Assembly (NCBI RefSeq): GCF_055900595.2
Contig: NZ_CM148325.1
Strand: one strand, 5' to 3'
Length of the DNA: 64,000 nucleotides
Position numbers: made by a program. This document shows positions 18,001-21,000 of the stretch, in pieces; position 1 is the stretch's first letter, and each line of letters starts with the position of its first letter.

Positions 18001-21000
18001 GAATGCAGATTGCGGGGTGAACGGAATCAGAAGAGATAAGAATGGGATCAAGATCGCTTTCATCGATATGTTTCCGCTTTTCATATCCGACATTATTGAT
18101 TGCCTGATGCGACGCTAATGCGCCTCATCAGGCTTACGTTCGTTAACTTTTCAGACGCGGGTCCAGCCATACCAACACAAGGGTGGAGAGCGAACACATC
18201 AACAAAATGCCGACGAACCAAAGTAAATACCACATTGTTCCTGCTCCTTAGTACATCTCGTTTTCGTTACGGCGGAGAGTTTCTGTTGTCATGCGCCCCC
18301 ACATTTTGTAGTAGCTCCAGAGAGTGTAGAGCAACACAATGGGCAAAAATATCAGCACGATTACCAACATAATGCTCAGCGTCAACTGGCTGGAAGTGCT
18401 GTCCCACAACGTCAGGCTGGAGATCGGACTTACGCTCGAAGGCATGACAAAAGGGAACAGCGTGATGCCTGCCGTGAAAATTACGCCAAATTGCATCAAT
18501 GACGCCATCAAAAATCCCCATCCCGGGCGACCACGATAAATCGCCATCACCGTCAGCAATGGACAGAAGAACCCCAGCAGCGGGAAGATCCACAAAACAG
18601 GCGATTCGACGAAATTATTCATCCAGGCACCAGGTAGCACTGCCACCAGTTTCATTAACGGATTGGAAGGACCGTTAGCATCCTGGGCGAGCAGTACAAA
18701 GCCATCAATACCGACCCACAGCCAGTAACCCGCCAGCAAAAAGCACAGCATCACCAGCAGTGCGGCGCGTTTGGTCGCCAGCTGTGAACGCAGATGAATC
18801 ACACCAACAGTTTTTAGTTGTAACCAGACGCCACCTTGCAAAATCACCATCCCAAGGCTGAGCAATCCGCACAATAAAGGGAATGGCGTCAGCAGTTGCC
18901 AAAAACTGCCGAGATATTCCACGCGTAATTGCGGTGTGAAGGCAAACGGCACGCCGAGCAGCAAGTTGCCGAAGGCAATACCGAAGACTACCGGCGGCAC
19001 CAGACTGCCGATGACCAGTCCGGCATCCCACATTTTACGCCAGCGTGCATCGGCGATTTTCCCACGATAATCAAAGGCCAGCGGGCGGAAGAACAGCGAG
19101 CACAGCACCAGAATCATCGCCACATAAAAGCCGGAAAACGCCGCTGCATACACTCTGGGCCAGGCGGCAAATAATGCCCCACCTGCGAGGATTAACCAGA
19201 CCTGATTGCCTTCCCAGTGCGCGCCAACGCTGTTTATCACTATCCGGCGTTCATCATCATTACGCGCCACCAGCGGCAGCAGACAGCCGATCCCCATGTC
19301 AAATCCATCGGAGATCATAAAGACCACCAGGATCACGCCAATCAGCAGCCACCAGATGAAGCGCAATGTTTCATAATCAAACATGATTTTCTCCTTTACC
19401 CCTGTTGCTGCGTCGGTTGTTCACTCTGCATCGCGCTCGGCCCCAGACGGGCATATTTCTGCATCAGGTAGACTTCGGCGATTAAGAACAGGGTGTAAAG
19501 CCCTACGATCATGATCAGTGAGAAAGCCAGTTGTCCTGTGGTTAAAGCGGAGTGCGCGGAGTATGTCGGTAAGATGTCCTGTATCGCCCACGGCTGACGA
19601 CCAAACTCGGTCATAAACCACCCGGCTTCAATCGCAATCCACGGCAGCGGCAAACTCCAGAGCGCCATTTTCAGTACCCAGCGATGCTGGTCGATTTTGC
19701 CACGCAGCGTCTGGACAAGCGCAATCAGCATCACCAGTAGCAGCAGAGAACCACAGCCCACCATGATGCGGAAACTCCAGAATACCGGCGCAACCTGAGG
19801 TATCGCGCCACGCATCGCCGCCTGGTACTGTGCAGCTGTGACATGGTTCATATCCGGCGCATAGCGGGAGAGCAACATGCCGTAACCAAGGTCGCCTTCC
19901 AGCTCCCGGAATGCCTGCAACACATGCGGCTCACGATTGCCTTGCGATATTTCCTGCATTAACAGCCAGGCCATACGTCCGCGTTGCAAGCGTGGGTAGG
20001 TTTCAGCCATCAAATTCTTCAGACCCGGCACGGGTTTATCTAATGAGTGAGTGGCGAGGATCCCTAGCAGCGCAGGAATTTTGATGGCAAAGGCGTTACG
20101 CTCTTGATCCTGTTCCGGCCAGGCAACTACATGGAACGGTGCAGGTGCAGGTTCCGTTTGCCACTCCCCTTCCATTGCCGCCAGTTTTACCGGTTGTACT
20201 TGCGCGACTTCATACGCAGAACTGTCTCCGAGTTGCAGCGTACCGATAATCGCCAGAGTACCGAAGACGGAACCGATGGCAAACGAGCGTAATGCAACAT
20301 CGCGTTCCCGTCCGCGCAGTAAATACCAGGCGCTGATCGCCATAATAAACATGGCCCCGGTCACGTAGCCCGCCATTACGGTGTGCACAAATTTCACCTG
20401 GCTGACCGGGTTAAAGACCAGCTCGCTGAAGCTGGTCATTTCCATACGAAGGGTGTCGATATCAAAATGCGCACCGGTCGGGTATTGCATCCAACCGTTG
20501 GCATTCAATATCCACAACGCAGAGAGATTTGAACCGAACGCCACCAGCCACGTCACCAGCAGGTGCTGGTATTTATTCAGCCGTTGCCAGCCGAAGAAGA
20601 ACAGCCCGACAAAGGTGGATTCGAGGAAGAAGGCCATTAATGCTTCCATTGCCAGCGGTGCGCCAAAAATATCGCCCACATAGTTGGAATAGAATGACCA
20701 GTTAGTACCAAACTGAAACTCCATCGTCAGGCCGGTAGCCACGCCAAGAGCAAAGTTGATACCGAAGAGCTTACCCCAGAAGCGCGTCATATCGCGGTAG
20801 ATTGTTTTGCCGGTGACCACGTAAATGGTTTCCATGATAGCCAGCAAAAAAATCAGCCCCAGGGTAAGGGGTACAAATAAAAAGTGATACAGCGCGGTCA
20901 GAGCAAACTGCCAGCGCGATAAATCAATGACATCCCACATGCGCACTCCTGTAGGCGAAGAGAGAAAAATAACCCGTTAATGGTAGATCTCCCTCTTTAT

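What the first reader, a model, noticed from the sequence alone, without database searches (positions are those of the whole stretch)
18143..18235. 30-codon appX (cytochrome bd-II accessory subunit) between appA and appB, missed by the ORF track
Reverse-complement translation gives MWYLLWFVGILLMCSLSTLVLVWLDPRLKS, a single-TM peptide sitting 12 bp downstream of appB. It shows the ORF track (minimum about 60 aa) hides genuine small proteins in this window.
Basis: partly seen in the sequence, partly recalled or inferred. Interest (0 to 1): 0.2.

Follow-up and report, generated by a model that had tools for sequence, protein, structure and literature searches.

The report
Known small subunit gene appX (cbdX)

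Summary
Window 18143-18235 (- strand) translates to MWYLLWFVGILLMCSLSTLVLVWLDPRLKS. It starts 12 nt after the appB stop, behind a UAAGGAG ribosome-binding site, and lies 79 nt upstream of appA. RefSeq annotates these coordinates as cbdX (WP_000270305.1), and 5415 of 5426 complete E. coli genomes carry the region. The peptide passes the NCBIfam CbdX equivalog model (80.8 bits, cut-off 57) and Pfam PF08173. It is 100% identical to the AppX chains in the cryo-EM structures 7OSE and 7OY2, where it is a single transmembrane helix packed against AppC helices 1, 5 and 6. The frame is under purifying selection. Within E. coli the only two variable sites are synonymous. In a diverged metagenomic locus (AppB 80% identical) the appC-appB-12 nt-appX layout is kept, changes fall 9/1/17 by codon position, and the other five frames carry stops. 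"Missed by the ORF track" only reflects a 60-aa length floor; rmf (55 aa) and gnsA (57 aa) in this window fall under it too. Verdict: real, already known, low interest.

The parts
18143..18235 (-). appX / cbdX (formerly yccB) coding sequence, 30 codons plus TAA stop; single-transmembrane-helix subunit of cytochrome bd-II
   Evidence: Translation. RefSeq CDS cbdX WP_000270305.1 at the same coordinates. NF011333 80.8 bits against a cut-off of 57, and PF08173 45.4 bits against 26.2. 100% identical to 7OSE_C and 7OY2_X.
18244..18250 (-). Shine-Dalgarno sequence UAAGGAG overlapping the appB stop codon, 8 nt before the appX AUG; likely translational coupling to appB
   Evidence: Read directly from the sequence. 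GGAG and the 12-nt spacing are kept in E. coli strains and in L007; L010 has GGAGG with 13 nt. PMC9841429 lists the appX SD as UAAGGAG. Coupling itself is inferred.
18248..19384 (-). appB, cytochrome bd-II subunit II (378 aa)
   Evidence: PF02322 E = 2.6e-96 and NF011602 831.7 bits against a cut-off of 681; RefSeq appB.
19396..20940 (-). appC, cytochrome bd-II subunit I (514 aa from the RefSeq ATG; the longest ORF starts at a GTG at 20946)
   Evidence: PF01654 E = 1.1e-175 and NF011609 1201.5 bits against a cut-off of 1025; RefSeq appC coordinates mapped to the window.
16765..18063 (-). appA, acid phosphatase/phytase (432 aa), the gene downstream of appX
   Evidence: NF007552 839.1 bits against a cut-off of 585; RefSeq appA, whose start gives the signal peptide MKAILIPFLSLLIPFTPQSAFA.
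18102..18133 (-). REP-like imperfect palindrome (hairpin) in the 79-nt appX-appA spacer; not part of the gene but part of the intercistronic anatomy
   Evidence: RNA fold -23.8 kcal/mol, z = -4.24, with 0 of 200 shuffles as stable. The same 14-mer arms recur in two more inverted pairs in the window, 6 matches against 0.91 expected. No intrinsic-terminator T-run was found.

Best explanation
Window 18143-18235 (- strand) is the E. coli gene appX (RefSeq name cbdX, old name yccB). It is the third cistron of the appC-appB-appX(-appA) transcription unit. It is translated from its own AUG, behind a UAAGGAG Shine-Dalgarno sequence that overlaps the appB stop codon, so its translation is probably coupled to that of appB (inferred). 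The 30-residue product is one hydrophobic helix (residues 2-24) with a short polar C-terminus (DPRLKS). It inserts into the inner membrane and binds subunit I (AppC) along TM helices 1, 5 and 6. There it stabilises the four-helix bundle that holds haems b595 and d of the cytochrome bd-II quinol oxidase (published structure of the identical sequence). It is the paralogue of CydX of cytochrome bd-I.
For: Shown here. The ORF, its translation and the 12-nt gap are exact. RefSeq annotates the same coordinates as cbdX in strains including K-12 MG1655 and O157:H7, always with the same protein accession. The 207-nt region is present in 5415 of 5426 complete genomes. NCBIfam equivalog NF011333 gives 80.8 bits against a cut-off of 57, E = 4.2e-23, over the full length 1-30 of 30; Pfam PF08173 is passed. 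The flanking genes pass the bd-II-specific equivalog models for AppC and AppB. The peptide is 100% identical to the AppX chains of PDB 7OSE and 7OY2, and distantly similar to CydX of 6RKO. Selection acts on this frame. Among six E. coli strains the ORF has 2 variable columns, both synonymous, against 7 in the 49-nt spacer after it. In metagenomic locus L007 (AppC 91% and AppB 80% identical, no appA downstream) a PF08173 ORF follows appB after the same 12 nt. There are 12 synonymous and 8 non-synonymous codon differences, distributed 9/1/17 by codon position. All five other frames contain stops. A third, more diverged locus (L010) has the same layout with a 13-nt gap. From the literature. AppX was identified by mass spectrometry in purified bd-II and modelled as a 30-residue TM helix contacting AppC TM1, 5 and 6 (PMC8585947; review PMC8951039). 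A preprint uses AppX as its known-small-protein reference for translation-initiation-site ribosome-profiling coverage (PMC11188072).
Against: Nothing found argues against the identification. Three caveats remain. The structural and mass-spectrometry evidence came from plasmid over-expression of appCBX. Whether AppX is strictly required for bd-II activity was not established by anything I read; the requirement is documented for the paralogue CydX (abstract of PMC6005532). Translational coupling to appB is inferred from geometry only.
Confidence: 0.98

Rival explanations
1. The ORF is a chance open frame in a non-coding appB-appA spacer and makes no protein.
For: Short ORFs are abundant by chance: 134 ORFs of at least 20 aa overlap 9 kb here.
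Against: Curated family models are passed at E = 4.2e-23. The sequence is identical to a protein chain resolved by cryo-EM and identified by mass spectrometry. Only synonymous variation occurs within E. coli. A codon-position pattern of 9/1/17 and conserved synteny hold in a locus with 80% AppB identity.
Confidence: 0.005
2. The start is AUGUG, so ribosomes also, or instead, initiate at the GUG two bases downstream. That would make the 46-codon out-of-frame product of ORF 18093-18233 (- strand), which reads through the REP hairpin.
For: The GTG ORF exists. Dual-frame initiation at AUGUG sites has been shown for some E. coli genes (PMC9841429).
Against: The same paper lists appX with SD spacing 15 and 'predicted ambiguity: no'. 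In L007 that frame stops after 23 codons and its sequence is not conserved. The codon-position pattern of substitutions fits the AUG frame.
Confidence: 0.03
3. The real gene here is the antisense 90-codon TTG ORF 18100-18372 (+ strand), the only ORF a 60-aa floor reports over this spot.
For: It is the only ORF of at least 60 aa that the ORF listing returns over the region.
Against: It runs antisense to the appB 3' end and to appX. Its frame is broken by stops in L007. It is not annotated in any RefSeq genome inspected. It has a TTG start and a low-complexity, arginine- and threonine-rich sequence typical of the antisense strand of a membrane-protein gene.
Confidence: 0.005
4. The peptide is CydX, the bd-I subunit, rather than the bd-II paralogue.
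For: It shares the N-terminal MWY..W..G.LL.CS motif with CydX, giving a 6RKO_X match at E = 0.009 and a TIGR02106 hit at E = 0.0014.
Against: The TIGR02106 score of 18.9 is below its cut-off of 31.6, whereas the CbdX model is passed. The upstream genes pass the bd-II-specific models NF011609 and NF011602 and fail the bd-I-type models NF011677 and NF011579.
Confidence: 0.005

Closest known systems
AppX / CbdX (YccB) of Escherichia coli, subunit of cytochrome bd-II (PDB 7OSE chain C, 7OY2 chain X; RefSeq WP_000270305.1; NCBIfam NF011333)
   Same: Identical at all 30 residues. Same position 12 nt after appB and before appA. Same protein accession in K-12, O157:H7 and other strains.
   Different: The protein does not differ. 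At the DNA level this strain differs from K-12 by one base in the SD-AUG spacer (G rather than A) and has no differences inside the ORF.
CydX (YbgT) of E. coli cytochrome bd-I (PDB 6RKO chain X; TIGR02106)
   Same: Same Pfam family PF08173. Same N-terminal motif MWY-x2-W-x2-G-x-LL-x-CS. Same gene position after subunit II. It occupies the same position on subunit I in the structures (PMC8585947).
   Different: CydX has 37 aa against 30. The window peptide scores below the CydX equivalog cut-off, 18.9 against 31.6. Leu4, Leu5, Leu16 and Leu19 of AppX are Phe, Ala, Phe and Ile in CydX, which the structure paper links to bd-II dimer contacts.
CydS of Geobacillus thermodenitrificans cytochrome bd
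   Same: A single-helix accessory subunit bound alongside subunit I, with an equivalent proposed stabilising role (review PMC8951039).
   Different: It is tilted by 4-5 A at the periplasmic side and does not contact TM4. No sequence comparison was made here.

Membership tests
CbdX/AppX, cytochrome bd-II small subunit (NCBIfam NF011333 equivalog) | Score at or above the curated whole-protein cut-off of the equivalog model, over the full length | tested here: met
   80.8 bits against a cut-off of 57, E = 4.2e-23, residues 1-30 on profile positions 1-30 of 30.
CbdX/AppX, cytochrome bd-II small subunit | Encoded directly downstream of, and on the same strand as, the bd-II subunit genes appC and appB | tested here: met
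   appC 19396-20940, appB 18248-19384 and appX 18143-18235 are all on the - strand. appC and appB pass the bd-II-specific models NF011609 and NF011602. The same layout is found in L007.
CbdX/AppX, cytochrome bd-II small subunit | About 30 residues forming one transmembrane helix | tested here: met
   Residues 2-24 (WYLLWFVGILLMCSLSTLVLVWL) are uncharged and mostly hydrophobic. The sequence is identical to the chain modelled as a single TM helix in 7OSE and 7OY2.
CbdX/AppX, cytochrome bd-II small subunit | Physical association with AppC/AppB in the purified oxidase | not testable with these tools
   Published for the identical sequence: mass-spectrometry identification and cryo-EM density, with contacts to AppC TM1, 5 and 6 (PMC8585947).
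   Within E. coli only synonymous changes occur. In L007 the ORF is kept with differences of 9/1/17 by codon position and stops in the other five frames. In L010 the ORF is kept after an AppB-like C-terminus. Only three non-E. coli sequences were seen, two of them examined in their genomic context.
Pfam PF08173 YbgT_YccB (CydX/AppX superfamily) | Score at or above the Pfam gathering threshold | tested here: met
   45.4 bits against 26.2, E = 8.5e-12.
CydX, cytochrome bd-I small subunit (TIGR02106 equivalog) | Score at or above the curated cut-off | tested here: not met
   18.9 bits against a cut-off of 31.6. It is the paralogue, not CydX itself.

The most novel reading that the evidence does not exclude
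The appX start is AUGUG. Some ribosomes might start at the GUG and make a 46-residue out-of-frame peptide (ORF 18093-18233, - strand) that reads through the REP hairpin and ends in a UAAUG overlap with an upstream in-frame AUG of appA. That would be an unrecognised second product, specific to E. coli, from this locus.
Probability: 0.03. Interest if true: 0.3.

Novelty: already known. Interest (0 to 1): 0.05.

Why it matters
It adds nothing new biologically. appX/cbdX is annotated in the RefSeq E. coli genomes inspected, belongs to curated families and has been seen in two cryo-EM structures. Its value is methodological. It is a clean positive control showing that a 60-aa ORF floor hides real genes (here also rmf and gnsA) and can put a spurious antisense ORF in their place. 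It also shows that a 30-aa membrane peptide can still be recognised from sequence context: a Shine-Dalgarno site overlapping the upstream stop codon, the MWY..W motif and a hydrophobic helix.

Tried and rejected
The exhaustive phmmer search of 1.84 billion representatives gave only 12 hits at E <= 0.001. Most are truncated, frameshifted or chimeric reads of the E. coli gene itself, for example P0004, which contains 'DVYKRQ' (in my recollection the translation of a sequencing-adapter sequence). Only P0003, P0007 and P0010 look like real orthologues from other taxa. This shows how weak single-sequence searches are for a 30-aa query. P0007 (29 aa) was too short for a context look-up. The promoter and terminator consensus scan of 17900-18400 found nothing, so the REP-like hairpin is not a canonical intrinsic terminator, and no appA-proximal promoter could be placed by consensus. 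The literature search for 'yccB' returned only one passing mention. I considered a genome-contig scan anchored on the AppB C-terminus to obtain named species. I did not run it, because identity to a solved, annotated protein already settles the question and the shared-compute cost was not justified. The antisense 90-aa ORF and the +2-frame GUG ORF were considered and rejected because neither is conserved.

Full report
**1. Observation**

The - strand of window 18143-18235 translates to MWYLLWFVGILLMCSLSTLVLVWLDPRLKS followed by TAA. The six-frame list shows it as a 30-aa ATG ORF. On the - strand the sequence reads ...GAG ATG TAC TAA GGAGCAGGAACA ATG TGG.... The upstream 378-aa ORF therefore ends at 18250-18248. 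Exactly 12 bases follow, and the ATG is at 18235-18233. The heptamer UAAGGAG (18250-18244) is a strong Shine-Dalgarno sequence that overlaps the upstream stop codon and lies 8 nt before the AUG. An ORF of this length is not significant in itself: 134 ORFs of at least 20 aa overlap the surrounding 9 kb. The case rests on what the ORF encodes.

**2. Identity of the neighbourhood**

- The upstream ORFs are cytochrome bd subunit I (PF01654, E = 1.1e-175) and subunit II (PF02322, E = 2.6e-96). They pass the bd-II-specific NCBIfam equivalogs (NF011609, 1201.5 bits against 1025; NF011602, 831.7 against 681) and fail the bd-I-type ones.
- The downstream ORF is AppA phytase/acid phosphatase (NF007552, 839.1 against 585).
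- A 4.4-kb megablast query matches 5416 of 5426 complete E. coli genomes over at least 80% of its length. The features annotated under the match are hyaF, appC, appB, cbdX and appA.
- In the best match (strain Z0117EC0005, 100% identical over 4.4 kb) the cbdX CDS maps exactly to window 18143-18235 and appB to 18248-19384. appC maps to 19396-20940 and appA to 16765-18063.
- The whole window is colinear with that chromosome at 99.7% identity.

**3. Identity of the peptide**

The peptide passes the NCBIfam equivalog 'cytochrome bd-II oxidase subunit CbdX' end to end (80.8 bits, cut-off 57, E = 4.2e-23). It also passes Pfam PF08173 YbgT_YccB (45.4 bits against 26.2). It falls below the cut-off of the CydX (bd-I) model (18.9 against 31.6).

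It is 100% identical to the chain deposited as 'cytochrome bd-II ubiquinol oxidase subunit AppX' in PDB 7OSE and 7OY2. It aligns weakly (E = 0.009) to CydX of 6RKO through the shared motif MWY..W..G.LL.CS.

The 7OSE paper reports the following (PMC8585947):

- AppX was identified by mass spectrometry in the purified enzyme.
- It is a 30-residue single helix buried in the membrane that contacts AppC TM helices 1, 5 and 6.
- The authors consider it most likely to stabilise the fold that binds haems b595 and d.
- It forms the main dimer contact in their amphipol preparation.

A review concurs (PMC8951039). A preprint on enterobacterial microproteins uses AppX as its 'known small protein' example for translation-initiation-site ribosome-profiling coverage (PMC11188072).

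**4.

Within E. coli, five further strains were chosen across the identity range, including K-12 MG1655 and O157:H7. All carry the same protein accession, WP_000270305.1. In the 207-column alignment the 93-nt ORF has two variable columns, CGT/CGA (Arg) and CTG/TTG (Leu), both synonymous. The 49 nt after the stop codon have seven variable columns.

Beyond E. coli, an exhaustive phmmer search of 1.84 billion representatives found 12 hits. Most are damaged copies of the E. coli gene. P0003, P0007 and P0010 are real divergent relatives.

- P0003 lies on metagenomic contigs (L007, L008) with the layout appC (514 aa), appB (378 aa), a 12-nt gap and then the small ORF (43 aa, PF08173). An unrelated gene on the opposite strand takes the place of appA.
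- Against the window, AppC is 91% identical (468 of 514), AppB 80% (303 of 378) and AppX 73% (22 of 30).
- There are 12 synonymous and 8 non-synonymous codon differences. Nucleotide differences fall 9/1/17 on codon positions 1/2/3, mirroring appB (78/26/211).
- All five alternative frames over the ORF contain stops in L007. This includes the antisense frame that is open for 90 codons in the window, and the +2 frame.
- L010 (P0010) shows a third, more diverged case: an AppB-like C-terminus (...YYKMLGRINVETIRRHNHELY*), then GGAGG, a 13-nt gap and MWYLFWFVGILLMC....

The frame is therefore conserved, and the finding survives its own refutation criterion.

**5. Mechanism**

- Shown: gene order, the Shine-Dalgarno site, the family membership and the identity to the structurally resolved subunit.
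- Established in the literature for the identical sequence: the peptide is a single TM helix bound to AppC TM1, 5 and 6, beside the haem b595/d bundle.
- Inferred: translational coupling to appB, from the Shine-Dalgarno site overlapping the stop codon and the conserved 12-13-nt spacing.
- Inferred: a stabilising or assembly role equivalent to that of CydX, which is required for bd-I function (abstract of PMC6005532).

In that study, combining an appX deletion with the cydX point mutants did not uncover any hidden cydX mutant phenotype. Nothing I read demonstrates that AppX is strictly required for bd-II.

**6. Surroundings**

The 79-nt appX-appA spacer holds an imperfect palindrome at 18102-18133 that folds at -23.8 kcal/mol (z = -4.2). 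Its arms match the motif GCCTGATGCGACGC, which I recalled as the REP (repetitive extragenic palindrome) consensus. That motif recurs as two more inverted pairs near 58.3-58.4 kb, with 6 matches against 0.91 expected. I therefore read it as a REP element. There is no T-run terminator and no consensus promoter in 17900-18400. By analogy with other intercistronic REPs, it may stabilise the upstream appCBX message; this rests on my own knowledge and was not tested.

**7. Rivals**

- A chance ORF is excluded by sections 3 and 4.
- The appX start is AUGUG, and a 46-codon ORF (18093-18233) begins at the GUG. The study of such sites lists appX as not ambiguous (PMC9841429), and that frame is not conserved. 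I keep it only as a 3% novel case.
- The antisense 90-aa ORF is an artefact.

**8. The 'ORF track' remark**

With the default 60-aa floor the ORF list omits appX and shows only the spurious antisense ORF. Using the RefSeq annotation of the colinear chromosome, three annotated CDSs in the window are shorter than 60 aa:

- cbdX, 30 aa
- rmf, 42809-42976 (-), 55 aa
- gnsA, 7211-7384 (-), 57 aa

. The remark is correct as a statement about the tool, but it is not a biological discovery.

**9. Verdict**

The feature is real and was correctly interpreted. It is already known and routinely annotated. Interest is 0.05.

Noticed in passing
window 18102-18133 (also 58297-58329 and 58406-58438): A REP-like palindrome sits in the appX-appA spacer (-23.8 kcal/mol, z = -4.2). 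The same GCCTGATGCGACGC arms form two more hairpins that map to the pepN-ssuB spacer. It may act as an mRNA-stability element separating appCBX from appA expression; this was not tested.
   Followed up: partly
window 18093-18233 (- strand): appX starts AUGUG, and a 46-codon ORF starts at the GUG (+2 frame). It reads through the REP hairpin and ends in a TAATG overlap with the upstream in-frame ATG (18093) of the longest appA ORF. It is not conserved in L007, and PMC9841429 predicts no ambiguity for appX but does predict it for appC.
   Followed up: partly
window 14464-16644 (+ strand): etk (tyrosine-protein kinase) is intact at 726 aa in the window. In the otherwise 99.7%-identical strain Z0117EC0005 it is annotated as a pseudogene, with an internal stop at codon 95.
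   Followed up: partly
window 18254-18256 (appB codon 377): AppB in this window ends ...NENEMY, whereas the five other strains compared, including K-12 and O157:H7, have ...NENELY (ATG against CTG/TTG). It is a strain-specific non-synonymous change next to the stop codon and Shine-Dalgarno site.
   Followed up: no
window 18063 vs 18093 (appA) and 20940 vs 20946 (appC): The longest-ORF starts from the ORF listing differ from the RefSeq starts. appA is 432 aa from the ATG at 18063, which gives a signal peptide, not 442 aa. appC is 514 aa from the ATG at 20940, not 516 aa from the GTG at 20946.
   Followed up: yes
window 42809-42976 (-) and 7211-7384 (-): Two other annotated genes fall under a 60-aa ORF floor: rmf (ribosome modulation factor, 55 aa) and gnsA (57 aa). 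ymcE (about 7375-7604) is frameshifted in the reference strain.
   Followed up: partly
window 18100-18372 (+ strand): A 90-codon TTG ORF antisense to the appB 3' end and appX is the only ORF of at least 60 aa reported over this spot. It is broken by stops in the diverged locus L007 and is a likely false positive of length-based ORF calling.
   Followed up: yes
L007 4001-4132; L010 97-270: AppX orthologues outside E. coli carry C-terminal extensions: 43 aa in L007, ending ...ESAKKDEAAGNHKIA, and 57 aa in L010. The helix core is conserved while the cytoplasmic tail is free to vary. The L010 tail could also be an assembly artefact.
   Followed up: no
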